Source: a virus (lineage: Duplodnaviria; Heunggongvirae; Uroviricota; Caudoviricetes). Taken from it: a stretch of 64,000 nucleotides of DNA. The stretch is from the IMG/VR virus record IMGVR_UViG_2609459792_000007; one strand, 5' to 3'. Within the stretch, counting starts at the first letter, position 1; every line of letters starts with the position of its first letter. The notes under the pieces were generated by a model. That model made no database searches, had not been told where the DNA came from, and saw only the letters and a list, made by a program, of their open reading frames with translations. Both the position numbers and the translations under genes were made by a program. Shown one piece after another: positions 1 through 59,310 of the stretch.

Positions 1-1160
1 ACTTCATCGGTAAAGATATTGTTTACTTCCACAGCCTGTTCTGGCCTGCCATGCTGGAAGGCAGCAACTTCCGCAAGCCGACCAACCTGTTTGTTCACGG
101 CTATGTGACGGTGAACGGCGCGAAGATGTCCAAGTCTCGCGGCACCTTTATTAAAGCCAGCACCTGGCTGAATCATTTTGACGCCGACAGCCTGCGTTAC
201 TACTACACTGCGAAACTCTCTTCGCGCATTGATGATATCGATCTCAACCTGGAGGATTTCGTTCAGCGCGTGAATGCCGATATCGTGAACAAAGTGGTTA
301 ACCTGGCCTCCCGTAATGCAGGCTTTATCAACAAGCGTTTTGACGGCGTGCTGGCAAGCGAACTGGCTGACCCGCAACTGTACAAAACCTTTACTGATGC
401 CGCTGAAGTGATTGGCGAAGCATGGGAAAGCCGCGAATTTGGTAAAGCTATCCGTGAAATCATGGCATTGGCTGACCTGGCTAACCGCTATGTCGATGAA
501 CAGGCTCCGTGGGTGGTGGCGAAGCAGGAAGGACGCGATGCCGATCTGCAGGCGATTTGCTCTATGGGCATTAACCTGTTCCGCGTGCTGATGACGTACC
601 TGAAGCCGGTACTGCCGAAACTGACTGAACGTGCAGAAGCATTCCTGAATACAGAACTGACCTGGGATGGTATCCAGCAACCGCTGCTGGGCCATAAAGT
701 GAATCCGTTCAAGGCACTGTATAACCGCATCGATATGAAGCAGGTTGAAGCACTGGTGGAAGCATCCAAAGAAGAAGTGAAAGCCACAGCCGCACCGGTA
801 ACTGGCCCACTGGCTGACGACCCGATTCAGGAAACTATCACCTTTGACGACTTCGCCAAAGTTGACCTGCGCGTGGCGCTGATTGAAAACGCAGAGTTTG
901 TAGAAGGTTCTGACAAACTGCTTCGTCTGACGCTGGATCTCGGTGGTGAAAAGCGTAATGTCTTCTCAGGCATCCGTTCCGCTTATCCAGATCCACAGGC
1001 ACTGATTGGTCGTCACACCATTATGGTGGCTAACCTGGCACCACGTAAAATGCGCTTCGGTATCTCCGAAGGCATGGTGATGGCTGCTGGCCCCGGCGGG
1101 AAAGATATCTTCCTGTTAAGCCCGGATGCTGGTGCTAAACCAGGCCACCAGGTTAAGTAA
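1..1160 (+). CDS. metG: methionyl-tRNA synthetase, C-terminal about 385 aa (5' end outside window)
   Basis: Frame is open from position 3; translation ([20 protein letters not shown]...KMSKSRGT...GAKPGHQVK) is recognisable as enterobacterial MetG including the KMSKS motif; stop TAA at 1158-1160. Confidence 0.95.
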
Positions 1161-1180
1161 TTAAACAACCTCTGTTCGCA

Positions 1181-1207
1181 ATGCCCGGCAACACGCTGGG
1201 CATTTTC
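1181..1207 (+). terminator. putative hairpin terminator downstream of metG
   Basis: atgccc-ggcaacacgct-gggcat stem-loop followed by tttc. Confidence 0.4.
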
Positions 1208-1243
1208 ATATAGACACAATCCCTTCTGATTTACGCATACCCT

Positions 1244-1258
1244 AAAACAATTTGTTTT
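1244..1258. promoter_or_regulatory. operator-like palindrome AAAACAA-T-TTGTTTT (family A)
   Basis: Perfect 15-bp dyad; overlaps presumed -35 region upstream of GATAAT at 1274-1279. Confidence 0.5.
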
Positions 1259-1293
1259 CTGCCTTTTGTTAATTGAGATAATAAGCCACATAA

Positions 1294-1309
1294 GAAAACA
1301 AATTGTTTC
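1294..1309. promoter_or_regulatory. operator-like palindrome GAAAACAAATTGTTTC (family A)
   Basis: Dyad between a GATAAT -10-like hexamer and the RBS of the 1322 gene. Confidence 0.55.
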
Positions 1310-1321
1310 GGAGTGGTTGAA

Positions 1322-1621
1322 ATGTTGAACATTACCCAAGCCTACCAGGTGGCATTGATCAGCTCATCTCATACATCAGAGGAAGATGCTCGCCGATTCA
1401 TGATCGCAAGCAATGAGCTGGATTGGGTTTCACAAATTGAGTACGGTTGCATTGTCCACGCCGGGTTACAGGACGATGACTGGAAAGATGAGTTGCGTCG
1501 ATATGGTATATCCGAGGGCGCGATTGCGAACATTCAGAAAGTACTTGATGTAGGCTTTGACTCTGTACATTTTGATTGTGGCGCACCGGTCGTTGAAGGG
1601 CTTGAGTGCTGGCAATGGTAA
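1322..1621 (+). CDS. hypothetical small acidic protein
   Basis: ORF with RBS ggagtgg 6-8 nt upstream of ATG 1322 (ORF track starts at 1313); preceded by family A operator. Confidence 0.6.
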   Translation: MLNITQAYQVALISSSHTSEEDARRFMIASNELDWVSQIEYGCIVHAGLQDDDWKDELRRYGISEGAIANIQKVLDVGFDSVHFDCGAPVVEGLECWQW

Positions 1622-1657
1622 TCCGGCAATCGCTTCATACTAGATAACGGAGAATTT

Positions 1658-1843
1658 ATGCTTAAAGAAGACTCATATCTACTAAAGGCGCTTGAAATGC
1701 GTGGCGTTGAACCTACAGTGAAAAACGCTCACGATATCTACCTTCAGTTTTCGCCAGAGCTGAAACAGCTCATAAATAAATATGGAGTGAATGACTCCAG
1801 CGTCAAAGCCATGATAGATGATGAATTAGACCATCTCATCTAA
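1658..1843 (+). CDS. hypothetical protein (61 aa)
   Basis: ORF with RBS acggag 7 nt upstream of ATG. Confidence 0.5.
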   Translation: MLKEDSYLLKALEMRGVEPTVKNAHDIYLQFSPELKQLINKYGVNDSSVKAMIDDELDHLI

Positions 1844-1859
1844 CCAAACCGTTGATAAT

Positions 1860-2790
1860 GGCGGTCACAATTTGATTCTTTTCTATAAGAATCCGTTGAT
1901 CGCCACTACTCCCCTTCCATACCCGCAATCACATCCTTAAATATCAATAAGTTATAGTTGTTTATACAATCAAGAAAACAACTGAATAACAGATCAACGA
2001 AACGTCAACGCTTTCACCCGATTTGGTCTAAAAAATTGACGTTTTCACACATCACTGCTTATACCCGTAATTCTACGCAGCAGACAGCGCCACAGCGTCC
2101 AATTTTCACCACAGACGACCCAACACACTACCAACAAAAACACACGCTCAAAATCGTTCCCGTTGCGTTACATAACCATATAAACAACTTATTTTCAGGC
2201 ATAACAAAACAACTAAATAACACATATGCCATTACCAAAAACAACCAACCTCTTTATGGCAGGCTACCGAAAAGACCCACCTCTTCTTCCCAGGCTACCG
2301 GACAACCAACCTAACTTTCACAGGCAATCCGAAAACATTCATACGCGCGATACCCACGATACGCCATTCCCCAAATAGCGAAGCACACCAGAATCACTGA
2401 AACCCCCAACGAAGCCTGTAACCGCAAGGTTTCTCTCAATCCCAAAAGACACGAAACAGAACAATCACGGGAAACGCCATTACCCAACACACGAATAACT
2501 ACAAAAGCCTTTCACGCACTCCAGACAAACACAATAACGAAAGGAATCGCCCACCTGCCATTACTCCATATACGGAGAAGAACAATCACCAAAACGACGA
2601 GAACCCCCCATAGAAGAACCACCGCAAAACGAACGAAACCACATACACCGACAGATAAAACAACACACCCAATTCACCAACAGAAATAGTCGTCGTATAG
2701 AACGTTCTGGAAGGAGTGAGCATTAACGCCTATAGAGAGGTTGAGACAGATAAAACACGAAGAAAACACAACATGTATAGCGAAGAAGCC
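1860..2790. repeat. A+C-rich, G/T-poor non-coding tract (strong strand compositional skew)
   Basis: About 900 bp dominated by A and C on the plus strand; only a low-complexity ORF (1958-2314) with no RBS; recurring caggctaccg words. Confidence 0.6.
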
Positions 2791-2899
2791 AGGTATGTAT
2801 AAGTGGGGAGGGAAGGAGGGGTGTCGCCTCCTTTTTCGTATTTATTCAACTCCTGATTTTATCCCCCGTAACACCCCTACGGTCAGCCTTCGGTCCATA

Positions 2900-3035
2900 C
2901 AGGGAAAAGGTTGCATCCCGCTACAGAAACGGCTGGGTTGCCTTCGGGGAACGGCTGGAGGTTTTCAGGGAAACGGTCGAGTTGCCTGTGTGGATTTCGG
3001 GAGAAGGCTCGATGCCGGTTCAGGAACGGTGGCGT
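2900..3035. repeat. iteron-like direct repeats G(G/A)AACGG(C/T), about 22-bp spacing, 5 copies
   Basis: cagaaacggctgg 2924, gggaacggctgg 2947, cagggaaacggtcg 2967, gggagaaggctcg 2998, caggaacggtggc 3021. Confidence 0.6.
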
Positions 3036-3364
3036 ACCGGTATAGCGAGAGGGAGAGTTGCGGCTACCCACCTGTAATGTGCGGGAAGAAGAGAGGCGCT
3101 CACGTAGGCGGACTTGCTTACCGCTGGATTCCCTCTGAATGCCCAGCTACAGCGTAATTGTGCCAGACAGTCAGCGGGTCACAATCGATTTCAGTAGGTT
3201 TTCGGGGAGGGGATTATTCTGCCCACCAGCCATCTTCGGCCACTAAATCAGAATAATGTAAAAAGTGTACTCGATACTGAACCTGAAAACTCACTGCCAA
3301 AACAACATTCACCGGAATAAAATCCTTTTTAGCCTGTGCGTTATTGCGATAATAACACCAACGA

Positions 3365-3380
3365 GAAAACAAGTTGTTTA
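3365..3380. promoter_or_regulatory. operator-like palindrome GAAAACAAGTTGTTTA (family A)
   Basis: Sits 10 nt downstream of GATAAT (3345-3350) and just upstream of RBS aagga. Confidence 0.55.
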
Positions 3381-3391
3381 AGGATTGCTTT

Positions 3392-3721
3392 ATGTTTGCA
3401 AATATCGACATCAACCAAATCAAGAAATTAACTCAAAAAGAGTTTGATCAGTTTTATGAGTTAGAAGGTTGGTCTTCCACTCTGATCAATTCGCGGTGGG
3501 TGCTTGAGCTGATGACTCGTGATGACGCACCTGCTTTGATGATCAGCGACCTGGGTGAAGATGCTGACTTTATGGATATGAGCGAATTTTGTGTGGACAC
3601 ATACAACCGCAGCCAGAAGTACTACTTCACATGCGATAGCGAAAATGACGTGATTTCTAAGGTCTATCTTCACCTCGTCCAGCATTGGGACGTTCAGGAG
3701 TTTCTTGAAGTATTCGAGTAA
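3392..3721 (+). CDS. hypothetical small acidic protein
   Basis: ATG 3392 with RBS aagga at 3380-3384; ORF track alternative start 3374 lies inside the operator; D/E-rich translation. Confidence 0.6.
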   Translation: MFANIDINQIKKLTQKEFDQFYELEGWSSTLINSRWVLELMTRDDAPALMISDLGEDADFMDMSEFCVDTYNRSQKYYFTCDSENDVISKVYLHLVQHWDVQEFLEVFE

Positions 3722-3728
3722 CCCCAAC

Positions 3729-3757
3729 CAAAGCCAGCATTGCTGGCTTAATTTCTC
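3729..3757 (+). terminator. hairpin terminator
   Basis: aagccagc-attg-ctggctt followed by aatttctc. Confidence 0.5.
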
Positions 3758-3848
3758 TATAGCCGCAGGGAAGAACCTGCATATCGCTCATGCACCTGAT
3801 CAATATGCTTTGTAGCCGTTTTCTTACTGGTATTATTTACGCCATTGA

Positions 3849-3864
3849 GAAAACAAGTTGTTTA
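3849..3864. promoter_or_regulatory. operator-like palindrome GAAAACAAGTTGTTTA (family A)
   Basis: Downstream of TATTAT -10-like hexamer, immediately before RBS acggag. Confidence 0.55.
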
Positions 3865-3874
3865 CGGAGTTGTG

Positions 3875-4186
3875 ATGAAAAAATCATTGGTTCTTGGTCT
3901 GGACAAAGACCAGAAGAGAAAAGAGAAGCCTGCGCTGGTTGCTCAATTAACTTTGCTGGACATCGTTGCCAATGGAACCTCTATTCGTCTGTTCCGTGAA
4001 ACAGCGGTGTCTTTCGATAAAAACACCTTTACTCGTTATGTAATGAATGTTCGTCGCCAGCGTGGAAAAGGCTGGGTGGCATTTCAAAGAATGTGGCCGG
4101 AACATCAGCTCGAACTGGCTTTGATGGAAGTTAACCGCGTGGCCCAGCAAGAGATTCAGAGAGCATCAGTGATGGCAATAGCCTGA
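3875..4186 (+). CDS. hypothetical basic protein
   Basis: ATG 3875 with RBS acggag; ORF track start 3845 lies inside the operator. Confidence 0.55.
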   Translation: MKKSLVLGLDKDQKRKEKPALVAQLTLLDIVANGTSIRLFRETAVSFDKNTFTRYVMNVRRQRGKGWVAFQRMWPEHQLELALMEVNRVAQQEIQRASVMAIA

Positions 4187-4220
4187 TAATGTGCAAGTGG
4201 TAATTAGTCGACAGTACGAC

Positions 4221-4249
4221 AGCCCCGCCATCCTTACGGGGCTTTTTTG
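4221..4249 (+). terminator. rho-independent terminator
   Basis: agccccg-ccatccttac-ggggct followed by tttttt. Confidence 0.8.
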
Positions 4250-4253
4250 TATT

Positions 4254-4269
4254 GTAAGTACATACTTAC
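4254..4269. promoter_or_regulatory. palindrome GTAAGTA-CA-TACTTAC (family B, TAAGTA type)
   Basis: Perfect inverted repeat directly after the terminator and upstream of the 4313 gene. Confidence 0.5.
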
Positions 4270-4312
4270 GATCATAGAATATAAAAATAACCAAAACACT
4301 ACGGAGAGTGAA

Positions 4313-4708
4313 ATGACCGTTAAACGCGAAAAACTGACAGTTGATGTTTACTATGCCTCTGAAACCGCCGAAGGTAAGAATGTGGCAAAAATCACCGTTG
4401 TTACGTACAACACCGAAACTGGTGCCGAAGTCCAGGCCAGTACGATTGTGCGTAAAGGTGATGCCTCCGGCGGCGAGTACGCGACTCAATACCAGTCCAT
4501 TCTCGATGCAACTGACCCGCTGCTGCTGAAAATCGAGAACTACTTCCGCCAGGTTGATGAAGAGGTGTTTGAAACCATGATGAATATGGTTAACACCGTA
4601 TTCGCCTCCAGCCTGAATACCAACACTACCTGGATTGGTCAGTACGGCCTGCGCATTACCTCTGGCATTCCTGCCGACACCTTAATCCCTGAAAGCGTAT
4701 TCGCTTAA
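4313..4708 (+). CDS. hypothetical protein
   Basis: ATG 4313 with RBS ggagag 5 nt upstream. Confidence 0.65.
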   Translation: MTVKREKLTVDVYYASETAEGKNVAKITVVTYNTETGAEVQASTIVRKGDASGGEYATQYQSILDATDPLLLKIENYFRQVDEEVFETMMNMVNTVFASSLNTNTTWIGQYGLRITSGIPADTLIPESVFA

Positions 4709-4720
4709 TCCTCTTTAAAT

Positions 4721-4748
4721 GGCGCGTAAACCGCGCCATTTTATTATG
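4721..4748 (+). terminator. rho-independent terminator
   Basis: ggcgcg-taaacc-gcgcc followed by attttatt. Confidence 0.75.
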
Positions 4749-4751
4749 CCC

Positions 4752-4768
4752 GATAACAATTTGTTTTC
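4752..4768. promoter_or_regulatory. operator-like palindrome GATAACAATTTGTTTTC (family A)
   Basis: Same word plus tctgcc flank as the copy at 1244. Confidence 0.5.
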
Positions 4769-4825
4769 TGCCTTATCTGATTTGTGAAAATGATTTCACT
4801 GAAGCAACTTAATAAGGAAACCATC

Positions 4826-5200
4826 ATGGGACTTGATATCTATATCGAGACGCAGCCTAAAAACGATCTGAATAACGAGGCATCCAGAAAGCAGGTTGCT
4901 TACTTCCGTAAGTTCAATGCGCTCGTTGGGTGGATGGAGCGCAACGTAGGTGAAGTCGAAAATTGTGAGCTTTTAGAATTAACGATGAATGACATTTGTT
5001 TTCTGAAGGCTCATTTGATGCACATAAACGAAAGTAATTGCGAAGAGTACTTGCCTACCCGGGAAGGTTTTTTCTTCGGCAGTCAGGAGTACGATGAAGG
5101 TTACTGGCATGATGTGGGGCAGTTGAAAGAGCTTGTGGAAGATCTGATTAAGAACCACGACTTTCACAATAACAGACTGACCTTCTGCGCCTGGTGGTAA
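4826..5200 (+). CDS. hypothetical protein
   Basis: ATG 4826 with RBS aaggaaac; ORF track start at 4784. Confidence 0.6.
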   Translation: MGLDIYIETQPKNDLNNEASRKQVAYFRKFNALVGWMERNVGEVENCELLELTMNDICFLKAHLMHINESNCEEYLPTREGFFFGSQEYDEGYWHDVGQLKELVEDLIKNHDFHNNRLTFCAWW

Positions 5201-5202
5201 AT

Positions 5203-5346
5203 ATGGGCGATTTCAAGAAACGCCTGAAGGAAAGAGCCGAGATGGTCAGAAAGCGAAACGCCTCTTCTGTCATCAGATACGCAAGGCAGTTTAGTCGCAA
5301 CAACAAATCAGTTGAGGAAAAGATCCTTAGCGTAATCGGGCGATAA
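5203..5346 (+). CDS. possible small basic protein (47 aa), below ORF-track size cutoff
   Basis: ATG 3 nt after the upstream stop; K/R-rich translation MGDFKKRLKERAEMVRKRNA...; ends just before terminator. Confidence 0.3.
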   Translation: MGDFKKRLKERAEMVRKRNASSVIRYARQFSRNNKSVEEKILSVIGR

Positions 5347-5349
5347 TTA

Positions 5350-5377
5350 TTAAGGCCACCAGCATTGGTGGCCTTAA
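5350..5377 (+). terminator. hairpin terminator, copy 1 of a twin element
   Basis: ttaaggccacca-gcat-tggtggccttaa. Confidence 0.6.
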
Positions 5378-5501
5378 ATGACTTTTAATAACCGAAGGTT
5401 AGTTTGAAACCTGGCTATCAACTTCCAGAACCTTTCTTGTGTATTCAGCCTGTATTAACTTCTTTTATGCCTTATCTACACTGCGATAATTACACCAACA
5501 A

Positions 5502-5518
5502 GAAAACAACATGTTTAC
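5502..5518. promoter_or_regulatory. operator variant GAAAACAACATGTTTAC (family A)
   Basis: Preceded by GATAAT (5485-5490) plus tacaccaac spacer as at 3345 and 5970. Confidence 0.5.
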
Positions 5519-5535
5519 GCAGTGAGGATATGCTC

Positions 5536-5817
5536 ATGACTGATTTCACCATTACCCCTAAAGCACAAAATGTATTCCTTGAATCATGGCTGGACTTGCC
5601 GGAAACAGAACAGCAAGAAATGGATCATGTGGATTATGACGAGCAGGTAAGCACGCGATTCTTCCACTTTGAGGGCTGCGTTTACGACATTGCCGACTTC
5701 ATGCGAGATGACCGCTTCCCTGAATGGCACGCCAGTTATCCACTAAACGCCTTTGCCATGCTGATGATCCGTGTGGATGATTCAGGGGATACCATCGACA
5801 TCGGTCTGCTCCACTAA
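5536..5817 (+). CDS. hypothetical small acidic protein
   Basis: ATG 5536 with RBS gagga 7 nt upstream; D/E-rich. Confidence 0.6.
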   Translation: MTDFTITPKAQNVFLESWLDLPETEQQEMDHVDYDEQVSTRFFHFEGCVYDIADFMRDDRFPEWHASYPLNAFAMLMIRVDDSGDTIDIGLLH

Positions 5818-5820
5818 AGA

Positions 5821-5848
5821 TTAAGGCCACCAATGCTGGTGGCCTTAA
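5821..5848 (+). terminator. hairpin terminator, copy 2 of twin element (loop inverted)
   Basis: ttaaggccacca-atgc-tggtggccttaa; same stem as 5350 with loop gcat changed to atgc. Confidence 0.6.
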
Positions 5849-5986
5849 ATGACCATCCTGTTTCCCGCAGGCTAAAAACACCAACCTCTTACCTCCAGGC
5901 AACCGACAAACCCACCTGTTCCCGTCCGGCTACCGCAACTTTCCACTTTGACGCCTTATTCGTACAACGATAATTAACACCAACAA

Positions 5987-6002
5987 GAAAACAATTTGTT
6001 AT
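5987..6002. promoter_or_regulatory. sigma70-like promoter plus family A operator GAAAACAATTTGTTAT
   Basis: TTTGAC (5946-5951), 16-nt spacer, GATAAT (5968-5973), then the dyad, then RBS aagga. Confidence 0.6.
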
Positions 6003-6021
6003 TTACGATAAGGAATTAATC

Positions 6022-6504
6022 ATGAATTTTATCGCTACTGTAAACGCACCCGCACATGGCAATATCGCTGTAACGTTCTCTGACATTGAAAAACGAGTAC
6101 TTGGTGCATGGCGCGACAATGAGACGGTAGAACTGTCAGCACAAGAAAAATGCATTATTGCACGCGACATCATTGGCAATCGTCGTTACTCGCGGGTATT
6201 TGAGAAAGCGTATGTGGTAAATTCTGGGTTCGGAACGTTCGTCTTTCCGGTGCGCTCCGGGCGATTCTGCCAGTCCAAGCTGATTGAGTTCGCTACGCAG
6301 ATTTCTGTCTGGATTAAAACTCAATCGTCGTTCAAATTTTCCGACGATGAAGCAGTATCGCAGGGGATGCGGATCGCCAACAATGCGATTAAATGCAAAA
6401 ACATTACGTATACCGCTGGCGTTGACACATGGAAACTGTTTTGCGCTAACTTTATGCTGAATGTATACGCAAGCAACCGCATCCACATCCTTGATGGCGT
6501 GTAA
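6022..6504 (+). CDS. hypothetical protein (160 aa)
   Basis: ATG with RBS aaggaa; preceded by promoter/operator module. Confidence 0.65.
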   Translation: MNFIATVNAPAHGNIAVTFSDIEKRVLGAWRDNETVELSAQEKCIIARDIIGNRRYSRVFEKAYVVNSGFGTFVFPVRSGRFCQSKLIEFATQISVWIKTQSSFKFSDDEAVSQGMRIANNAIKCKNITYTAGVDTWKLFCANFMLNVYASNRIHILDGV

Positions 6505-6513
6505 CTGAGAAGA

Positions 6514-6535
6514 GGGCCAGAAACGGCCCTTTCTC
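6514..6535 (+). terminator. hairpin terminator
   Basis: gggcc-agaaac-ggccc followed by tttctc. Confidence 0.6.
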
Positions 6536-6553
6536 TATAGCCACCAGCTGCCG

Positions 6554-6633
6554 CAGGGAAATTTTCAGAAACGGCGAGGAACGTATTCATGAGCCGACGG
6601 GAAACGGCCAGGATTTTTTCGGGAAACGGCTGC
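6554..6633. repeat. second iteron-like cluster TTTTC(A/G)GGAAACGGC
   Basis: cagaaacggcgagg 6566, cgggaaacggccagg 6598, cgggaaacggctgc 6620; last two exactly 22 bp apart. Confidence 0.55.
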
Positions 6634-7088
6634 ATTCGCCTTTATGTAGAAAAAACATCGGGAAGCTGGTGGAATCCAACCAGCGGTTGTCGGACAGGCG
6701 AGCGGGGAAAATTATGATGACTTTCGTCGCCTGATACATCCAGATTTCTTTCGTAGCGTAATCACATACGTGATTAAGTGGTGTGATTATGTGAAAAATC
6801 ACGCGCACATAATACGCGAGCGGACACAGAACAACACAAAATGCCGATCCGCGCCGACAAATAAACGCGGATCACATAGCAAGACTAAAAGCCAATGATT
6901 AACCATACGCTATAGCGCAATATAACGCGTTTTAAGCGCGTTAATGTGTTAAGTAATGGGTATGTACTGGCAAGGATATAAAAGCGCGTCTATGGCGTTA
7001 TTTTGGCGCTTATTTTTATGTTGTTGGAGTGAGTTAAAGACAATAAAAAACGCCCCATCATGGGCGGGTTATGGGGGGAGTATTGAAA

Positions 7089-7128
7089 AAAAAAAAAGCG
7101 CCCATGGGGGGCGCTCGATTTTATTTGT
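7089..7128. terminator. bidirectional hairpin terminator
   Basis: A-run, gcgccc-catgg-ggggcgc, T-run; ends the minus-strand 8274-7121 operon. Confidence 0.7.
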
Positions 7129-8870: not shown

Positions 8871-9395
8871 TCAAAAAGGCAAAATTCGTTCAACCCAATC
8901 GAACAAAACAACTATTTTTCTACCGTTCTCGACACGTAGTGTAACCTGACAAGCATCTGCGCCTGCTGACACCCCCTCAATTTCACGGCCATCCGCCATG
9001 TACACCCTTATAGATTTGTTTGCTTTGTAGGCTTGGTTGCAAATTGCAAAAAAATCGCGGCGTGATGGCCGATTATCGACATAATCAGGGTGAACTGTTA
9101 GTCGACCTTTGAAATCGTGAGCGATACTGTCAACCACACCTGATTCAATTGTACTAATGCGTTCAAGTGGGAGCCTTATACGATTTTCTTTGTCAAAAGG
9201 GGCTGGGCAAAGGTCAACTTTGTTACGAGATGGCATGAGGCCATAAACGTACATGCAAAACGCCTGGCCATCTTCGAGAGTGACCCTTACAGGAATTTGT
9301 TCTCTGCGCCAGAACATCAGTAGTTTTTCAACGTTAGTGTAATCTCGCGGCCAGAGTTCAGCTTGGATACCGTAGGTAATATCTTTGGTTGTCAT
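8871..9395 (-). CDS. hypothetical protein
   Basis: ORF; likely start MTTKD at 9395 overlapping upstream stop. Confidence 0.5.
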   Translation of the reverse strand: MTTKDITYGIQAELWPRDYTNVEKLLMFWRREQIPVRVTLEDGQAFCMYVYGLMPSRNKVDLCPAPFDKENRIRLPLERISTIESGVVDSIAHDFKGRLTVHPDYVDNRPSRRDFFAICNQAYKANKSIRVYMADGREIEGVSAGADACQVTLRVENGRKIVVLFDWVERILPF

Positions 9396-14720: not shown

Positions 14721-14987
14721 ATGACGTTAACCGACAAACAAAAGGACATCATCAAAACGCTCAATCTCGGTTATGAGCGAGGTCATCTACTTGACCTGGA
14801 CGAATTGCTTGAAGTTTTGCCGTACAAGACAACCAAGCAAAGTATCCAGTTCTCAATTCGCGCTCTGATAAAAAAGGGGCTGGTGGAGAAAGGGCATACG
14901 CGCCAACGCAGTGACAATCGCTATCACCGCCGGACTCTTGGGTTAACCACTTTAGGTCGAGCCAAAGCGAAGTTACTGGTGATGTAA
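14721..14987 (+). CDS. putative winged-helix DNA-binding protein
   Basis: 88-aa basic protein; helix-turn-wing-like segment SIQFSIRALIKKGLVEKGH. Confidence 0.45.
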   Translation: MTLTDKQKDIIKTLNLGYERGHLLDLDELLEVLPYKTTKQSIQFSIRALIKKGLVEKGHTRQRSDNRYHRRTLGLTTLGRAKAKLLVM

Positions 14988-15066: not shown

Positions 15067-15102
15067 CTTCGTAAGACATGCCAGACCTAATTAAACACCC
15101 CA

Positions 15103-15144
15103 GAAAACAAGTTGGTTAGCAGATGCAGTAAACAAGTTGTTTTA
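15103..15144. promoter_or_regulatory. two family A operator copies upstream of terminase operon
   Basis: gaaaacaagttggtta (15103-15118) and taaacaagttgtttta (15129-15144), then hairpin gagcgc-atggac-gcgctc. Confidence 0.5.
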
Positions 15145-15182
15145 GAGCGCATGGACGCGCTCTGTGTGTTTTAGAGGGATCT

Positions 15183-15815
15183 ATGACGGTCGAAAAAGAC
15201 GAGGTAAAAACTCGCCTGACACCAGCGGAGTGGGCCGAAGCTGAAGCCAAATGGACGTCAGGCGAATATACACTCTCAAAGCTGGAGGAAGAGTACGGCA
15301 TTCGTCGTGAAACACTCTCCAGACATTTCAAAAAGCGAGGATTAGAGAAAGGCGCGGACTCTGTTGGGAAGATGGTTCGTGAGTCTCTTAAATCTGACGC
15401 AGAGCTTCGCGCTAAAGCCCGTGCGGAAAAGATAGAAGAACGTCGTACACGTTATGACGGCTGGGCGTATGCGTTGGGGCAGATGGTGATGGTCGAAGTC
15501 ACTACGGCCAAACGTGAGGGTAAGCCTTTAGGGGCGATTGAGGATTCTCTCAAGAGCTTACAGAGAGCCAGTAATACCCTTGCAAAATGCTTTGAAGTTT
15601 CGTCCAAAGCATTGGGCATGGATCATGCGGAAAATGACGAGGAAGAAATTCCGAACCTGGTATTTGGTGAGCTTACGCCTTCCCAGGTGGCGAAATTACG
15701 TCAGGAAGACGACGAGCCTGAAATCATCGATGACGAATTGCTTGAGACGTTGGAAGAAGAAGCTCTAAGCGAATTTGATGCGACAGATGATGGAAGTGAA
15801 GGGGAGGACGAATAA
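15183..15815 (+). CDS. putative terminase small subunit
   Basis: HTH-like N-terminus, acidic C-terminus, immediately upstream of and overlapping large terminase. Confidence 0.55.
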   Translation: MTVEKDEVKTRLTPAEWAEAEAKWTSGEYTLSKLEEEYGIRRETLSRHFKKRGLEKGADSVGKMVRESLKSDAELRAKARAEKIEERRTRYDGWAYALGQMVMVEVTTAKREGKPLGAIEDSLKSLQRASNTLAKCFEVSSKALGMDHAENDEEEIPNLVFGELTPSQVAKLRQEDDEPEIIDDELLETLEEEALSEFDATDDGSEGEDE

Positions 15816-30611: not shown

Positions 30612-31343
30612 ATGTTAGCGCCTACTTATTTCAAGGATGAAACAATGGGAATTAAAGCTGATATTCAGAGCTTATCTCCCTCTGCACTCATTGAGTTGTT
30701 CGTACTGGATATGTCGAACACAACTTCAGGGGGGAAGTTATTCTTCCACGCCGGAACAAACGAACTGATGCAACCGGTCGTCTGGCAAGGAGTGACATAC
30801 GAGCCGTGGCCAATCAAAGCATCAGGCTTTGACAAAACTGGCCAGGGAACGTTGCCACGTCCAAAAATTCAGGTATCGAACTTTGCCGGAACCGTCTCTG
30901 CGGAAGTTCAGGCGAACGACGATCTTGTTGGCTGCCGCATTATTCGCAAGATGACGCTGGCTCGCTTCCTCGATGCCGTTAATTTTAAAGACGGCAACCC
31001 AACAGCAGATCCAAACCAACATTTCCCGGATGAAATGTGGTTTATCGAACAGAAAACTCTCGAAACTCATCAGGTTGTCGAGTTTGAATTGTCCAGTGTG
31101 TTCGATTTGATGGGGGTGCAACTGCCGTATCGTCAGATCATTAAAAACACCTGCCCGTGGAAATACCGAGGGCCAGAATGCGGCTATACCGGTCCATATT
31201 TCGACAAAAATAACCAGCAGACGTCTATGTCTGGTGCGGATTACTGCACAAAACGTTATGACGCCTGTAATGCGCGTCGGAATTATTTTGCCGACGGTGT
31301 GATCCATTTTGGCGGATTTATTGGAGCTACGCGGTATGGGTAA
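30612..31343 (+). CDS. minor tail protein (lambda L-like position)
   Basis: 243-aa ORF with several cysteines; start may be ATG 30645. Confidence 0.6.
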   Translation: MLAPTYFKDETMGIKADIQSLSPSALIELFVLDMSNTTSGGKLFFHAGTNELMQPVVWQGVTYEPWPIKASGFDKTGQGTLPRPKIQVSNFAGTVSAEVQANDDLVGCRIIRKMTLARFLDAVNFKDGNPTADPNQHFPDEMWFIEQKTLETHQVVEFELSSVFDLMGVQLPYRQIIKNTCPWKYRGPECGYTGPYFDKNNQQTSMSGADYCTKRYDACNARRNYFADGVIHFGGFIGATRYG

Positions 31344-32133
31344 TAAAGCAATCCCTGAGCTTGGCTCTGACGTTATGCAGCAAATCTATCTCTGCGCCAT
31401 AAATCGCTACCCTAATGAAGCGTGTGGCTTTCTGGTTAGAACTAATGGCGACAAATATCGCTTTATGGAAGCGCGGAATGTTTCGGAGAACCCGCAGAAC
31501 ACTTTTGTAATGCACGTTGACGACATTATGGCGGCAGAGGATGCGGGTGATGTTATCGCAATCTGGCATTCACATACTGATGAATCAGCAGAAGCATCTG
31601 ATGCCGATCGTGCAGGCTGTGAAGCGACGGAAGTTCCGTGGATGATTCTGGCTATTCGCAAGAATGTTGAGGGAGATGCCCCTTTCCATTTTAGCGAGAT
31701 GAATGTGATCACACCTGATGGTTTCGAAATGCCATACCTGGGCAGACCGTATGTATTTGGCGTATTCGATTGCTGGATGTTGTGTCGGGACTATTTGAAG
31801 CGTGAGTTTAACGTCAAACTAAACCCGAACGCACACCTGCATATTCCATCGTGGTACACCGGCGATAACGACATTCTCGATCAGAACTACCGAAACGAAG
31901 GATTGGTACGGCTTGCGCCCGGAACAGAACCTCAACGTGGGGACGTCTTCTTTATCCAATACGGAAAAATGCCTGACCACTGTGCGGTTTATATCGGCGA
32001 TGGAATGATTCTTCATCACCAGATCGACCGCCTTAGTTGTCGTGCTTATTACGGCGGGATGTATCAGAAACATACGACGCATCACTTGCGTCACAGAGAC
32101 TTGCTCAAGGGAGATGAGACGTGTCTGAGTTAG
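31309..32133 (+). CDS. tail tip assembly protein (lambda K-like; JAB/MPN plus NlpC/P60)
   Basis: JAB-like motif HSHTDESAEASDAD and Cys/His pair (DCWMLC ... HCAVYIGDGMILHH). Confidence 0.7.
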   Translation: MADLLELRGMGNKAIPELGSDVMQQIYLCAINRYPNEACGFLVRTNGDKYRFMEARNVSENPQNTFVMHVDDIMAAEDAGDVIAIWHSHTDESAEASDADRAGCEATEVPWMILAIRKNVEGDAPFHFSEMNVITPDGFEMPYLGRPYVFGVFDCWMLCRDYLKREFNVKLNPNAHLHIPSWYTGDNDILDQNYRNEGLVRLAPGTEPQRGDVFFIQYGKMPDHCAVYIGDGMILHHQIDRLSCRAYYGGMYQKHTTHHLRHRDLLKGDETCLS

Positions 32134-32711
32134 TTCATGTGCAGCTTGGCGGCCCTATGGCCAAACATTTTGGCCGCCACTGGCATCTAAAGGTGCGCAA
32201 TACAAAACAGGCTCTGGATTTAATTGAGGCCAACAAGCCAGGGTTTAAAGCATGGATGAAGCGCAACATCAAAACCTATGACAGATACCACATCCAGATC
32301 ACCAATAAACAGGGCCACAAGTGGTCTGTGGACGAGAGTGAATATCAGATGATGGGGCAGTCTGACAATATTGCAAAAATCCGCATTACCCCTGTTCCGC
32401 GAGGAAGTGGTGGATCTGCTTTTGGATGGTTTCAGACGGTTGTTGGAGCAGTATTAATGGTTGCCTCGATATGGGTGCCCGCTCTTGCGCCTCTCGGTTT
32501 GTCACTGATGATGGGCGGTATAGCGCAAATCATATCTCCGCAAGCCACTAACGAAAGTGTGAGGCAGGCGGATAACTCGAACTCTTATTACTTTGATGGA
32601 CCTCAAAACACAACAAACCAGGGGAACCCTGTACAGCTTATCTATGGCGAGGAAATTTTAGTTGGCTCACAGGTCGTGAGTTCTTCTATCACCATCGACC
32701 AGCTTATGTAA
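32121..32711 (+). CDS. tail assembly protein (lambda I-like)
   Basis: Position between K-like and J-like genes; hydrophobic central segment. Confidence 0.6.
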   Translation: MSELVHVQLGGPMAKHFGRHWHLKVRNTKQALDLIEANKPGFKAWMKRNIKTYDRYHIQITNKQGHKWSVDESEYQMMGQSDNIAKIRITPVPRGSGGSAFGWFQTVVGAVLMVASIWVPALAPLGLSLMMGGIAQIISPQATNESVRQADNSNSYYFDGPQNTTNQGNPVQLIYGEEILVGSQVVSSSITIDQLM

Positions 32712-32722
32712 TCAAGGATTTT

Positions 32723-45807: not shown

Positions 45808-45823
45808 GAAAACAAGTTGTTTC
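45808..45823. promoter_or_regulatory. family A operator GAAAACAAGTTGTTTC upstream of partition operon
   Basis: Dyad between promoter-like sequence and RBS of ParA-like gene. Confidence 0.55.
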
Positions 45824-45857: not shown

Positions 45858-46526
45858 ATGACCAAGATCTTTGTGGTTGGCGGCACAAAGGGCGGGCCTG
45901 GCAAATCCACCGTTGCCCAGCAAATTGCCGTTTGCCTGAAAGTCAAAAAGAAGAAGAAGGTTTATATCACTGATATAGATATTCAGCGCACGACAACAAG
46001 CTGGTGTGAAGACCGTCGACAGAACGAAGACCTTGAGCTGATTCCTTTTGCATACGTTCAGGATGACATCATTAAGCACCTAAAATCGCTTCAGGGTAGA
46101 GCTGAGTTTGTAGTGGTAGATGCTGGTGGCTTTGACTCCGAAATTCAGCGACAAGCGATGCTGATGGCCGACGTTATCATTATCCCGCTTCGTCCTAAGC
46201 GTCGTGATTTGAAATCTCTGCGTGACATCGATCCTATTATCGACAATGTTCGTAATGTAAACGATAAAGTGAAGGTCCGCGCGGTCATGAACCAGTGCCC
46301 GGCTTTGCCATCACAAGTGTCTCGCATTCTGGCGGCTAAAGAGATTGTCGAGACGTTTGGCATCGAGTCTGCGCCAGTCAATCTATATAACCGCAACGTC
46401 TACGATGATGCGGAAGAGTCAGGTCGTTCTATCTTTGAAATGACCGGTAGCGAGCGCGACAAAAAGGCGGAAGCCGAGTTTGAAGAATTTGTAGATTATC
46501 TGTTGAGTCTGGAGGAAGAAGAATAA
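45858..46526 (+). CDS. ParA/MinD-family partition ATPase (small type)
   Basis: Deviant Walker A GGTKGGPGKST; about 220 aa. Confidence 0.8.
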   Translation: MTKIFVVGGTKGGPGKSTVAQQIAVCLKVKKKKKVYITDIDIQRTTTSWCEDRRQNEDLELIPFAYVQDDIIKHLKSLQGRAEFVVVDAGGFDSEIQRQAMLMADVIIIPLRPKRRDLKSLRDIDPIIDNVRNVNDKVKVRAVMNQCPALPSQVSRILAAKEIVETFGIESAPVNLYNRNVYDDAEESGRSIFEMTGSERDKKAEAEFEEFVDYLLSLEEEE

Positions 46527-48737: not shown

Positions 48738-48753
48738 GAAAACAATTTGTTTA
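48738..48753. promoter_or_regulatory. family A operator GAAAACAATTTGTTTA upstream of helicase gene
   Basis: Dyad followed by RBS aaaggaaag. Confidence 0.55.
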
Positions 48754-55756: not shown

Positions 55757-55761
55757 ATTTA

Positions 55762-55848: not shown

Positions 55849-55852
55849 AATT

Positions 55853-57263: not shown

Positions 57264-58367
57264 ATGAAAAATAGCTTTGACAGAGCACGCGCTGCGGAGA
57301 ACACCTCAAAAGAGGCGATTGAGTATCTCGAAAGAGCATCTCAAATGCAGGCCGTTATGATCTCGCAGGTTAGCATTGATATGAGATTCTCGGACGCATT
57401 CATGTTATTCACTCGCTTATCTCTGCTGATAACCAGACGTCGGCCAGAGATCGCTGTTCATTGTATTTTGATACATGTTTTGCCGCACATTGCCGATGTA
57501 AAAGTAAGTGACATTAATAGGTTCATGGTGAACCAGCTGGTCAACCCACTAATACTGGATGGCAAAATTGTTATGGGCCGCCGCGTTTTCTCTCTGATGA
57601 AACAGTTCCTTAGCTGGTGCGCCTTCCAGGGGATGATAGACGTGTCACCGTTAAACGATATGTCACTAAACAAAGTTGCCGGTGGCGCAAAGCCCACACC
57701 TCGCGAGCGGAAGCTGACCGACGCAGAGGTATGGGTGTTCTGGAATATATGGGACTACTTCAATGTGTGCGCTGGTACAAAATGGGCGGCCAGGCTGTGT
57801 CTTGTATCAGCAAGACGACCTGACGAAGTACTGCGGGCTAAAAAAAGTGAGTTCAATCTTAAGCGTGGGGTTTGGAATCAAGGCAAGAGAAACAAGTCAG
57901 CACGTGAGCATTCGCTGCCTTTAAGCACATTAATGCGCACATGCATTGAAGAGTTGTTCGAATACGGTAAAGACAGCCAGTGGCTCGTGCCTTCGAATAA
58001 AAAAATCGGGAAAGACCTTCCTATGTCTAAAGTGGCAATAGCCCAGGCATTACGTCGTATTCTGGAACGACCAGAACTGATGGAGCTTGAGCCATTTACA
58101 CCCCGAGATTTGCGCCGTACTGCGCGTAGTTACTTCCCAGCATTAGGCATAAGCCAGGAGGTATCACGCAAAATCATGAACCACAGTCTTGAGGGGATAG
58201 ATCGGGTCTACGACCGGCACGATTATATGGACGAGATGCGAGACGCCTTAGAAAGTTTCTCGACGTACATCGCATCAATCGTAGAGCAACCGGATTTAGA
58301 CGAAATTGACCACAAATTCAAGGGAGATCGTCTATCAACAGAGCTTATTCGTGTAAATTTTTCATAG
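57264..58367 (+). CDS. tyrosine recombinase / integrase family protein
   Basis: C-terminal catalytic-domain-like residues (ARRPDE, DLRRTARSY, MNHS, RVYDRHDY). Confidence 0.7.
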   Translation: MKNSFDRARAAENTSKEAIEYLERASQMQAVMISQVSIDMRFSDAFMLFTRLSLLITRRRPEIAVHCILIHVLPHIADVKVSDINRFMVNQLVNPLILDGKIVMGRRVFSLMKQFLSWCAFQGMIDVSPLNDMSLNKVAGGAKPTPRERKLTDAEVWVFWNIWDYFNVCAGTKWAARLCLVSARRPDEVLRAKKSEFNLKRGVWNQGKRNKSAREHSLPLSTLMRTCIEELFEYGKDSQWLVPSNKKIGKDLPMSKVAIAQALRRILERPELMELEPFTPRDLRRTARSYFPALGISQEVSRKIMNHSLEGIDRVYDRHDYMDEMRDALESFSTYIASIVEQPDLDEIDHKFKGDRLSTELIRVNFS

Positions 58368-58748
58368 AGACTTTATGGCCTCAACAACCTTTTGTGATGC
58401 GCCTTTCTCTTTACCGAATCGCTCGTTATACGCAGCAAGAACCTGTTTTTCGTCCTCGTTAAGAGGAGCGGTGCCTTCTTTGTATAAAAATGCTGCGAGT
58501 TCAGGTTGGCGTTCTTCCAGCACCATCATCATAAGACGACTTGGTTCAATACCCAGCGCCAGCGCCAGCGGACGAACCTTATCGATAGGCAAAGGAATTT
58601 TGCCACTTTTAATTAAAGAAAGGTTGTTGGCATTTTTATAACCAATAAGTCTGGCTATTTGGGCCTGACTCATAGGTGAGGATTCAATCAGCCCTGCGAT
58701 AAAAGCAGCATAGCGACTTTCTATAAATTCAATCTTGTTGTCAGACAT
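58362..58748 (-). CDS. XRE-family helix-turn-helix transcriptional regulator
   Basis: HTH-like segment SQAQIARLIGYKNANNLSLIKSGK in a 128-aa protein. Confidence 0.7.
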   Translation of the reverse strand: MSDNKIEFIESRYAAFIAGLIESSPMSQAQIARLIGYKNANNLSLIKSGKIPLPIDKVRPLALALGIEPSRLMMMVLEERQPELAAFLYKEGTAPLNEDEKQVLAAYNERFGKEKGASQKVVEAIKSL

Positions 58749-59212: not shown

Positions 59213-59310
59213 CCCCTCTTCTCCCTGCGCGAATGGCTTAGTTCCCTGTTCGCGCAGTGCTACATTAAACACACTAGTAAATAATTTGTTTTCATAACAA
59301 AGGATTAGCC

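What the first reader, a model, noticed from the sequence alone, without database searches (positions are those of the whole stretch)
1240..6540. Cassette array of small genes built from recurring promoter, operator and terminator modules
Eight or more short ORFs (47-160 aa) are each framed by near-identical units: GATAAT -10 hexamer, tacaccaac spacer, GAAAACAA-N-TTGTTT dyad, RBS, ORF, hairpin terminator. Coding content differs while regulatory modules are conserved, which suggests modular shuffling of early or accessory genes under one repressor.
Basis: seen in the sequence. Interest (0 to 1): 0.75.

Follow-up and report, generated by a model that had tools for sequence, protein, structure and literature searches.

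The report
Repeated promoter-operator modules in phage-plasmid
A phage-plasmid of E. coli carries a row of small unknown genes, each with nearly the same promoter and repressor-binding site. The same site also guards about ten other operons of the element, so this is one genome-wide control circuit that does not seem to have been described, though it is of a familiar kind.

Summary
The window is an SSU5/pHCM2-type phage-plasmid, 97-98% identical to E. coli plasmids and to phage Cyrano. Positions 1240-6540 hold nine small ORFs in seven transcription units. Six units start with a homologous ~75-bp module: extended -10 (TGnGATAAT), the dyad AGAAAACAA-N-TTGTTT over the start site or over the -35, then an SD. 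All units end in hairpins.

The dyad gives 17 hits against 0.3 expected. Module identity is 54% against 25% in controls.

The dyad is not private to the array. It also precedes terS, parA, dnaB-primase, cobT/S and, in Cyrano, nrdB and others, about 18 sites per genome. It is unchanged in pHCM2, pMT1 and Klebsiella relatives, while the cassette content differs between them.

Published lysogen RNA-seq shows these genes at background level. They rise earlier than the structural genes under stress.

The best reading is a dispersed repressor-operator regulon with swappable early or accessory cassettes. The repressor is unidentified. Presence and absence across relatives favours an FljA-family protein and argues against the ParA partner protein.

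A conserved 850-bp A/C-rich non-coding segment and a second palindrome regulon (TAAGTA-NN-TACTTA) are also present and unexplained.

The parts
1241..1321 (+). Module M1. Upstream operator core at 1245-1257 (over the -35), extended -10 TGaGATAAT at 1274-1282, downstream operator AGAAAACAAATTGTTT at 1293-1308, and SD GGAGTGG. The two operator centres are 51 bp apart.
   Evidence: (I8, D3, D4). The same 51-bp pair occurs in pHCM2 and pB379_2.
1322..1843 (+). Unit 1: ORF C (1322-1621, 99 aa, DUF5983, pI 4.3) and ORF L (1658-1843, 61 aa).
   Evidence: (PF19419, E 7.5e-13)
1900..3300 (+). Conserved non-coding segment.
- A/C-rich stretch at 1900-2760.
- Reverse dyad at 2182-2194, with TAAATA about 25 nt downstream.
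- Three ~30-bp repeats at 2238-2334.
- Hairpin with T-run at 2810-2837.
- About six ~22-bp CRGGRAAMGG repeats at 2880-3060.
- Chi site at 3223-3230.
   Evidence: D2, D5, D8; 75-95% column identity across 5 relatives; no conserved ORF; fold z -1.1
3312..3391 (+). Module M2: TGcGATAAT at 3345-3353, spacer AACACCAAC, operator core at 3367-3379, SD AAGGA.
3392..3749 (+). Unit 2: ORF F (109 aa, pI 4.2) and terminator hairpin at 3731-3749.
   Evidence: (z -4.1)
3808..3874 (+). Module M3: TGgTATTAT at 3828-3836, operator core at 3851-3863, SD GGAG.
3875..4249 (+). Unit 3: ORF D (103 aa, basic) and terminator hairpin at about 4220-4249.
   Evidence: (z -4.9)
4252..4742 (+). Unit 4, which has a different promoter. 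-35 TTGTAA at 4252-4257, palindrome TAAGTACATACTTA at 4255-4268, -10 TAGAAT at 4275-4280, ORF E at 4313-4708 (131 aa), terminator at about 4717-4742. It has no AAACAA dyad.
   Evidence: (z -4.6). ORF E is the only cassette with a homologue in the Moellerella relative.
4750..4825 (+). Module M5: the operator core at 4754-4766 lies over the -35 only; TGtGAAAAT at 4783-4791.
   Evidence: (D4, 80% identical to M1)
4826..5377 (+). Unit 5: ORF G (124 aa), ORF I (5203-5346, 47 aa) and terminator hairpin at 5350-5377, which contains a Chi site on the - strand.
   Evidence: (z -4.4)
5449..5535 (+). Module M6: TGcGATAAT at 5482-5490, spacer TACACCAAC, operator core at 5504-5516 (1 mismatch), SD GAGG.
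   Evidence: Conserved in pMT1 and pHCM2.
5536..5848 (+). Unit 6: ORF A (93 aa, pI 4.1; labelled 'ABC transporter' in RefSeq, probably a mislabel) and hairpin at 5821-5848. This hairpin is the mirror twin of the one at 5350-5377 and carries a Chi site on the + strand.
   Evidence: I1, D7; z -5.4
5846..5939 (+). Second set of three ~30-bp repeats, matching those at 2238-2334.
   Evidence: D2
5946..6021 (+). Module M7: GATAAT at 5969-5974, spacer TAACACCAAC, operator core at 5989-6001 (1 mismatch), SD AAGGA.
6022..6535 (+). Unit 7: ORF B (160 aa), the most widely conserved cassette, and terminator hairpin at about 6507-6535.
   Evidence: (z -3.6). AF2 pLDDT 81 with no structural relative.
6540..6720 (+). 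Second set of ~22-bp GGGAAACGG-type repeats, matching those at 2880-3060.
   Evidence: (D5, D8, D9)
15105..15142 (+). Two operators (cores at 15105-15117 and 15130-15142) upstream of terS (15183). They are followed by a hairpin with T-run just before the ATG.
45810..45822 (+). Operator at the promoter of parA (45858) and the 119-aa partner gene (46526-46885).
48740..48752 (+). Operator upstream of the DnaB-like helicase (48772) and primase.
59279..59291 (+). Operator (1 mismatch), preceded by TGcTACATT, upstream of the CobT-like (59311) and CobS-like genes.
8874..9395 (-). FljA-family protein (174 aa), the best current candidate for the dyad-binding regulator.
   Evidence: (PF03614, E 1.5e-84)
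58362..58748 (-). XRE-type HTH protein next to the integrase, an alternative candidate. Its own intergenic region carries a different palindrome, GGTAAGTGCTTACC.

Best explanation
Positions 1240-6540 are the variable small-gene region of an SSU5/pHCM2-type phage-plasmid.

Each transcription unit consists of:
- a sigma-70 promoter with an extended -10;
- a 13-17-bp dyad operator (AGAAAACAA-N-TTGTTT), which starts about 10 nt after the -10 and so covers the transcription start and the first ~20 nt (in two units a copy also, or only, covers the -35);
- an SD;
- one or two small, mostly acidic ORFs;
- an intrinsic terminator.

The same operator sits at about ten more promoters around the genome (terS, parA, dnaB-primase, cobT/S, nrdB and others). 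I infer that a dimeric DNA-binding repressor encoded by the element occupies these sites in the plasmid-prophage and blocks RNA polymerase. On induction the sites are freed and the small genes come on early.

Because every unit carries the same ~75-bp module and its own terminator, units can be gained, lost or re-paired by recombination. This would explain why relatives have different cassettes behind the same modules.

Shown: the repeats, their positions, their conservation, the cassette variation, and the silence of these genes in a lysogen. Inferred: promoter activity, repression, the identity of the repressor (the FljA-family protein at 8874-9395 is my first guess, at about 0.35), and what the cassette proteins do (perhaps host takeover or anti-defence, suggested only by their acidity).
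For: - Over-representation: 17 dyad hits against 0.3 expected.
- Fixed geometry: the -10-like hexamer lies 13 nt before the core, and the core lies 24-33 nt before the ATG, in the cassette modules and in dnaB and cobT.
- Paired operators 51 bp apart, about 5 helical turns, in M1 and in its pHCM2 and pB379_2 counterparts.
- Sites occur in both orientations. In M5 the only site lies over the -35, outside the transcript, which requires recognition at the DNA level.
- About 18 sites in the whole Cyrano genome, all in front of genes.
- The operator is identical in E. coli, Salmonella, Klebsiella and Yersinia elements.
- Published LF82 RNA-seq: the first genes after a dyad average log2 3.3 in LB (the floor is 2.32). 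They rise by 2.0 log2 units at 1 h in macrophages, against 0.8 for structural genes (p 0.004).
- Cassette content varies behind conserved modules. Array length also varies among plasmids that are 97% identical.
- Regulator candidates: FljA-like, wHTH71 and p70 are present wherever the dyads are (pMT1) and absent where the dyads are absent (Moellerella). The ParA partner protein shows the opposite pattern.
Against: - No binding or transcript-start data exist. The promoter scan flagged only the M4 promoter, because the modules lack a good -35.
- parA carries the operator yet is expressed at 5-9 times background in the lysogen, so repression is at most partial there.
- terS, a late gene, also carries the operator, so 'early' does not apply to every target.
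- FljA is reported to act post-transcriptionally on the fliC leader (title of ref. 125 in PMC8306008). The E. coli fliC leader has no such dyad.
- FljA-like variants only 65-67% identical coexist with an unchanged dyad.
- The Moellerella comparison cannot separate loss of a regulator from a change of host family.
Confidence: 0.6

Rival explanations
1. The element acts as RNA. The dyad lies in the 5' leader just before the SD. The FljA-family protein, whose C-terminal half shows a weak Sm/Hfq-like match, would bind it to block translation and destabilise the mRNA, as reported for FljA on the fliC leader.
For: - The dyad is inside the predicted 5' UTR in 5 of 6 cassette modules and in parA, dnaB and cobT.
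- The FljA family hit is strong, with a weak Hfq hit at residues 120-162.
- The FljA-like protein tracks the presence of the dyad across relatives.
- FljA is described as a post-transcriptional regulator (PMC2652032; reference title in PMC8306008).
Against: - In M5, at 2182 and in several sites in relatives the dyad lies upstream of the -10, outside the transcript.
- A 6-N1-6 dyad cannot form a stable hairpin.
- The 51-bp pairing of two sites around a promoter is typical of DNA looping.
- The E. coli fliC leader has no similar motif.
Confidence: 0.15
2. The dyads are dispersed centromere and operator sites for the small protein encoded after parA (46526-46885). They would serve partition and gene control together, like the single IR sites of N15 SopB or KorB of RK2.
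For: - The dyad sits on the parA promoter in the window and in a Klebsiella element whose partner protein is only 55% identical. A half-site is present in Moellerella.
- The partner protein is expressed in the lysogen.
- It has a disordered basic N-terminal tail and an invariant segment IKSRT-S-EDE...RSDV-RAA that resembles a ribbon-helix-helix.
- N15 has single dispersed IR centromere sites (PMC7205306).
Against: - pMT1 lacks this ParA and its partner yet keeps every dyad intact.
- Moellerella has the partner, with the same invariant segment, but no dyad regulon.
- The ribbon-helix-helix fold was not confirmed: AF2 pLDDT 63 with no strand predicted, and no Pfam, PDB, hhalign or Foldseek support.
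Confidence: 0.08
3. The dyad is a positive element: the binding site of an early activator, or part of a special promoter recognised after induction. The genes would then be silent in the lysogen for lack of that factor.
For: - The modules have poor -35 hexamers, and the sigma-70 scan did not flag them.
- The genes are silent in LB and come up under stress.
- Small winged-helix-like proteins that are silent in the lysogen exist (14721-14987, 54251-54466). One of them, wHTH71, tracks the presence of the dyad.
Against: - Site positions vary from about -37 to about +10 and occur in either orientation, which is unusual for an activator.
- Extended -10 promoters (TGnGATAAT) normally work without a -35 or an activator.
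- A site covering +1 to +20 is a classical blocking position.
Confidence: 0.1
4. A host transcription factor of Enterobacteriaceae and Yersiniaceae binds the dyad, and the element uses it to sense the state of the host.
For: The dyad is invariant across elements whose own regulators differ by 20-43%. It is absent from the element living in a Morganellaceae host.
Against: I know of no E. coli regulator with this consensus (own knowledge, not tested). The regulon covers terminase, replication and partition genes, which points to a self-contained circuit.
Confidence: 0.07

Closest known systems
CUP (conserved upstream) elements and the ArdK repressor in the leading region of IncN plasmids (pKM101/R46)
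   Same: - Repeated conserved promoter-operator modules stand in front of several small establishment or accessory genes.
- All are bound by one plasmid-encoded repressor, which also controls replication and its own gene (PMC6289460, citing Delver & Belogurov 1997).
   Different: - A conjugative plasmid, not a phage-plasmid.
- The CUP and ArdK sequences were not compared here.
- Here the regulon also includes the terminase, helicase-primase and partition operons, and the regulator is unknown.
Dispersed C1 operators of phage-plasmid P1
   Same: A plasmid-prophage whose repressor acts at many operators scattered around the genome, in front of unrelated operons including a DnaB-type helicase gene (own knowledge).
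   Different: - P1 operators are asymmetric 17-mers and C1 is a 283-aa protein; no C1 homologue is annotated here.
- P1 has no array of swappable cassettes carrying a shared 75-bp module.
Global regulators of partition or maintenance loci (KorA/KorB of RK2, omega of pSM19035, N15 SopB with IR1-4)
   Same: One small regulator has palindromic or heptad sites at many promoters of the replicon, including the par operon. In N15 the sites are single and dispersed (PMC7205306; the rest is own knowledge).
   Different: Presence and absence across relatives argues against the partition partner being the binder here. The sites are concentrated in a small-gene array rather than at maintenance genes.
FljA, repressor of phase-1 flagellin (Pfam PF03614)
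   Same: The candidate regulator at 8874-9395 is a clear family member (E 1.5e-84). FljA acts on the leader region of its target (PMC2652032).
   Different: - It is only about 35% identical to Salmonella FljA.
- There is no flagellin gene here.
- Its target would be about 18 phage-plasmid promoters.
- Binding to the dyad is untested.
Integron gene cassettes
   Same: A row of small, exchangeable genes of unrelated function.
   Different: - Each cassette here has its own promoter, operator and terminator.
- No attC-like sites and no adjacent IntI were seen. The tyrosine integrase at 57264-58367 is 50 kb away.

Membership tests
SSU5/pHCM2-type phage-plasmid (identity of the window) | Near-identity and synteny with known members | tested here: met
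   97-98% identity over 5.9 kb to 184 E. coli plasmids and to phage Cyrano, with none on chromosomes. The gene order matches Cyrano: terminase to tail genes, ParA, DnaB, CobT, metG.
Dispersed repressor-operator regulon (P1 C1 type, functional class) | A specific short sequence over-represented in the element | tested here: met
   17 hits against 0.3 expected in the window; 18 sites in Cyrano.
Dispersed repressor-operator regulon (P1 C1 type, functional class) | Sites overlap promoters of several separate operons | tested here: met
   Every site with up to 1 mismatch lies 24-78 nt before a start codon and next to a -10-like hexamer. Promoter activity itself was not measured.
Dispersed repressor-operator regulon (P1 C1 type, functional class) | Target genes silent in the lysogen and derepressed on induction | tested here: inconclusive
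   Genes are at background level in LB and rise 4-fold in macrophages in published RNA-seq of a 97.5%-identical element. No full induction time course is available. parA is moderately expressed.
Dispersed repressor-operator regulon (P1 C1 type, functional class) | A cognate repressor shown to bind the sites | not testable with these tools
   Only presence/absence ranking of candidates was possible.
IncN CUP/ArdK system | ArdK homologue and the CUP 13-nt consensus | not tested
   Neither sequence was available to me. The resemblance is in architecture only.
Type Ib partition system with dispersed centromere/operator sites | Sites co-occur with the centromere-binding protein across relatives | tested here: not met
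   pMT1 has the dyads but no partner protein. Moellerella has the partner but no dyads.
Type Ib partition system with dispersed centromere/operator sites | The centromere-binding protein has a ribbon-helix-helix fold | tested here: inconclusive
   The sequence pattern is suggestive. AF2 gave pLDDT 63 with no strand predicted, and Pfam, PDB profile, hhalign and Foldseek gave no hits.
FljA family (PF03614), for the candidate regulator | Pfam match above the gathering score over the full length | tested here: met
   282 bits against a cut-off of 24, covering positions 1-170 of 170. PHROG 1444 'transcriptional repressor'.
Integron cassette array | Promoterless cassettes bounded by attC sites next to an intI gene | tested here: not met
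   Cassettes have their own promoter modules and terminators. No recurrent attC-like imperfect inverted repeat at cassette ends was found in the repeat search. No adjacent integrase.

The most novel reading that the evidence does not exclude
Three linked proposals:
- The dyad regulon is run by the FljA-family protein. The flagellin phase-1 repressor of Salmonella would then be a domesticated copy of a phage-plasmid master regulator.
- The array it controls is an early host-takeover or anti-defence island, the phage-plasmid counterpart of plasmid leading regions.
- The conserved 850-nt A/C-rich, unstructured non-coding segment, which has its own dyad, is a new kind of regulatory RNA or DNA element, for example a decoy that loads Rho, or a lytic origin flanked by iterons.
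Probability: 0.2. Interest if true: 0.7.

Novelty: new member of a known kind. Interest (0 to 1): 0.45.

Why it matters
SSU5/pHCM2-type phage-plasmids are common in clinical E. coli, Klebsiella, Salmonella Typhi and Yersinia pestis, and they carry resistance genes. Their control circuitry is essentially undescribed; my searches of the held literature found nothing on this operator.

A single 15-bp operator that marks about 18 promoters gives a direct handle on the switch between plasmid life and lytic growth. It also predicts the regulon in hundreds of sequenced elements.

The region is a hot spot where small genes of unknown function, mostly acidic, are exchanged behind ready-made promoter-operator modules. 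That makes it a reasonable place to look for new anti-defence or host-takeover proteins.

The mechanism itself (repressor, operator, terminator) is ordinary.

Tried and rejected
- **ParA partner protein as the dyad binder and as a ribbon-helix-helix protein.** This was my favoured idea for a while. It was demoted by the pMT1 and Moellerella comparisons, and the fold could not be confirmed.
- **XRE repressor as the binder.** It is only 57-66% conserved while the dyad is invariant, and its own control region has a different palindrome. It is not excluded.
- **FljA target comparison.** The E. coli fliC leader shows no dyad. The key FljA papers and the P1 genome paper are not held.
- **Rfam.** Only tRNAs were found, plus one hit below threshold outside the array.
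- **Non-coding segment.** No conserved ORF and no significant RNA structure. My search pattern for the 30-bp repeat had the wrong spacing and found none of the intended copies.
- **Integron reading.** Rejected, because the cassettes have their own promoters and there are no attC-like sites.

Full report
**What the window is**

The first 1160 bases are the 3' end of a metG gene. Positions 1160-7100 match 246 E. coli plasmids, and no chromosome, at up to 98% identity. They also match phage Cyrano (pLF82) at 97.5%, and more distantly Klebsiella, Enterobacter, Salmonella (pHCM2) and Yersinia pestis (pMT1) plasmids of about 100-115 kb that are non-mobilizable.

The rest of the window follows the Cyrano gene order: terminase through tail genes, lysis, ParA, helicase-primase, ligase, tRNAs, integrase with an XRE regulator, then CobT/S-like genes. 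The window is therefore an SSU5/pHCM2-type phage-plasmid, and the finding lies just downstream of its own metG.

**Checking the observation**

Positions 1240-6540 contain nine ORFs of 47-160 aa, each with a good SD. They form seven units, because 1658-1843 and 5203-5346 follow another ORF without a module of their own.

The dyad GAAAACAANNTGTTT, allowing one mismatch, occurs 17 times in the window against 0.30 expected. Its core is AAACAA-N-TTGTTT, usually extended to AGAAAACAA on the side facing the -10.

Six units carry the dyad.
- In M1, M2, M3, M6 and M7 the core begins 13 nt after a -10 hexamer and 24-33 nt before the ATG. The hexamer is GATAAT or TATTAT, and in four of the five it is preceded by TGn.
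- M1 has a second copy over the -35, with centres 51 bp apart.
- M5 has only the -35 copy.

The 50 nt upstream of the core are 54% identical between modules on average (range 38-72%), against 25-26% for random or other upstream sequences. The modules are therefore homologous, not just carriers of a shared motif.

Every unit ends in a hairpin with a folding z-score between -2.8 and -5.4.

'Near-identical' is too strong. One unit (ORF E, 4313-4708) has a different promoter and no AAACAA dyad. A 1.45-kb stretch (1860-3300) has no gene.

**The operator is genome-wide**

Outside the array the same dyad precedes terS (two copies, 15105 and 15130), parA (45810), the DnaB-like helicase and primase (48740), and the CobT/CobS-like pair (59279).

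In the complete Cyrano genome there are 18 sites with at most one mismatch. They also lie in front of CYRAN_58, nrdB, a TciA-like gene, CYRAN_87 and an Eae-like gene.

The operator is unchanged in pHCM2, a Klebsiella plasmid, pB379_2 and pMT1. The array is thus the densest part (8 sites in 4.8 kb) of a regulon that spans the element.

**Cassette variation**

I clustered the annotated ORFs of six elements. In the maps below, * marks a unit with a dyad promoter and nc marks the non-coding segment.
- Window: C* L | nc | F* | D* | E | G* I | A* | B*
- Cyrano: same as the window, but M replaces L
- Klebsiella plasmid: nc | J* H | D* | E | G* A | B* (the module before A is lost)
- pHCM2: N O | K* | C* P | nc | J* H | Q | D* | E | A* | B*
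- pB379_2: R S | K* | T* C | U | nc | H* | F* (a DUF1380 gene sits between module M1 and C, and H has its own module)
- pMT1: only A* B*

Among E. coli plasmids that are 97% identical, the region matched by the 5.9-kb query spans 5.2 to 8.4 kb. That recombination occurs within the modules is an inference.

**Expression**

The LF82 study (PMC9928086) gives per-gene RNA-seq values for Cyrano. In LB the median is 9.8 normalised reads.
- The cassette genes give 5-25. CYRAN_102 and CYRAN_109 give about 57.
- The XRE regulator gives 96, the ParA operon 50-89, and the FljA-like gene 18.

The 15 genes that directly follow a dyad average log2 3.3 in LB (floor 2.32). In macrophages they rise by 2.0 log2 units at 1 h and 2.3 at 6 h. 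The 22 structural genes rise by 0.8 and 2.1. The difference at 1 h has p = 0.004.

This fits genes that are repressed in the plasmid-prophage and released early. However, the data come from a partial, population-level response, not an induction time course. The same study reports 39-fold induction of Cyrano by ciprofloxacin.

**Mechanism**

An extended -10 promoter needs no activator, and a dyad covering +1 to +20 is a classical blocking position. Sites occur in both orientations, and in M5 the only site is outside the transcript. M1 has two sites about five helical turns apart. I therefore favour a dimeric DNA-binding repressor (confidence 0.6).

An RNA-level mechanism acting on the leader remains possible for the +1-type sites (0.15).

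**Who binds the dyad?**

I tested candidates by conservation and by presence or absence across relatives.
- The 119-aa protein after ParA looked attractive. The dyad sits on its own promoter, also in a relative whose protein is 55% identical. It has a basic disordered tail and an invariant segment that resembles a ribbon-helix-helix.
- However, the fold could not be confirmed. pMT1 lacks this protein yet keeps every dyad. A Moellerella relative has the protein but no dyad regulon.
- The XRE protein is present everywhere, but it is only 43-66% conserved, and a different palindrome sits in its own control region.
- The FljA-family protein at 8874-9395 (PF03614, E 1.5e-84; 79-83% conserved), a 71-aa winged-helix-like protein (wHTH71) and a 70-aa protein (p70) are present where the dyads are and absent where they are not.
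- FljA is a known repressor that acts on the leader of its target.

I rank FljA-like first (about 0.35), but this is not settled. A host factor would give the same presence/absence pattern.

**What the cassettes do**

Unknown. Six of the nine proteins are strongly acidic (pI 4.1-4.9), as many phage early anti-restriction proteins are (own knowledge). No search gave a function.

**Other features inside the coordinates**

1. *Non-coding segment (1900-3300).* On the + strand, 1900-2760 is strongly A/C-rich, with GC skew down to -0.56 and AT skew up to +0.57. The segment has no conserved ORF. It is 75-95% conserved across five relatives, and as RNA it would be unstructured. It has its own dyad at 2182, which is perfect in the relatives, and ends at a hairpin with T-run at 2810-2837.
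2. *Repeat sets.* Three ~30-bp repeats (2238-2334) and about six ~22-bp GGGAAACGG-type repeats (2880-3060) recur at 5846-5939 and 6540-6720.

I could not assign a function to either.

**Comparison with known systems and verdict**

The architecture is closest to the CUP promoter-operator repeats bound by ArdK in IncN leading regions. The dispersed operators resemble those of P1 C1 or of KorA/KorB (own knowledge). It is not an integron.

I found no description of this operator in the held literature.

It is a real feature that does not seem to have been described, and it is a new member of a familiar kind. Its interest is moderate. That would rise if the FljA link or the non-coding element proves to be what the novel reading proposes.

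Noticed in passing
window 4255, 11782, 18576, 24071, 30572, 37485, 47961, 54914, 61438: A second over-represented palindrome, TAAGTA-NN-TACTTA, gives 11 hits against 0.06 expected. It lies about 8-12 nt before -10-like hexamers, mostly in the structural-gene region, and at the one cassette promoter that lacks the AAACAA dyad. It is present in Cyrano (14), pMT1 (11) and also Moellerella (7). It looks like a late-promoter element. The 88-aa winged-helix-like protein just upstream of terS (14721-14987) is conserved in all these elements and is a candidate partner.
   Followed up: partly
window 1900-2760: An 850-bp A/C-rich, G/T-poor conserved non-coding stretch with its own dyad operator and a terminator at 2810-2837. 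It has no conserved ORF and no predicted RNA structure. Cyrano ORFs CYRAN_103 and CYRAN_104 annotated here are probably spurious.
   Followed up: partly
window 2238-2334 and 5846-5939; 2880-3060 and 6540-6720: Two kinds of local repeat, each present as two sets: three ~30-bp units, and about six ~22-bp units with GGGAAACGG. Each set lies just after a terminator. They resemble iterons, and are confined to this region of the window.
   Followed up: partly
whole window; 3223, 5356, 5835, 6541, 6665 in and just after the array: Chi (GCTGGTGG) occurs 18 times in 64 kb against 1.4 expected. By my own recollection this is close to the density of the E. coli chromosome. The twin terminator hairpins at 5350-5377 and 5821-5848 are mirror versions of each other and carry Chi in opposite orientations.
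   Followed up: partly
window 15100-15185: The terS leader has two dyads 25 bp apart, followed by a strong hairpin with T-run (15144-15175) right before the ATG. Late-operon expression may therefore also need antitermination.
   Followed up: no
window 58750-59000: The region between the divergent XRE gene and a 70-aa ORF holds a different palindrome, GGTAAGTGCTTACC, and related half-sites. This is probably the XRE protein's own operator. The 70-aa gene (CYRAN_46) is among the most strongly induced Cyrano genes in macrophages.
   Followed up: no
window 8874-9395 (-): The phage-plasmid encodes an FljA-family protein ('repressor of phase-1 flagellin') although it has no flagellin gene. Homologues are in pHCM2, pMT1 and Klebsiella elements. 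The C-terminal half gives a weak Hfq/Sm-like hit.
   Followed up: partly
window 5536-5817: RefSeq labels the 93-aa acidic protein A 'ABC transporter'. No family search supports this, and the label is probably an annotation error that has been propagated.
   Followed up: partly
window 7042-7107 (+): A weak Rfam match to the Hrs1 sRNA (32.7 bits against a gathering score of 56.4, E 0.0018), in a hairpin-rich AT-rich spacer after the array.
   Followed up: no
L016 (pMT1) 30700-37000: pMT1 carries a block with ArdA, DUF1380, DUF905, a DNA methylase and a large ParB-like gene, typical of conjugative-plasmid leading regions. A DUF1380 gene also appears as a dyad-driven cassette in pB379_2. Small genes therefore seem to be exchanged between leading regions and this array.
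   Followed up: no
window 1-1160 and 55682-55925: The element carries its own methionyl-tRNA synthetase gene and three tRNA genes.
   Followed up: no
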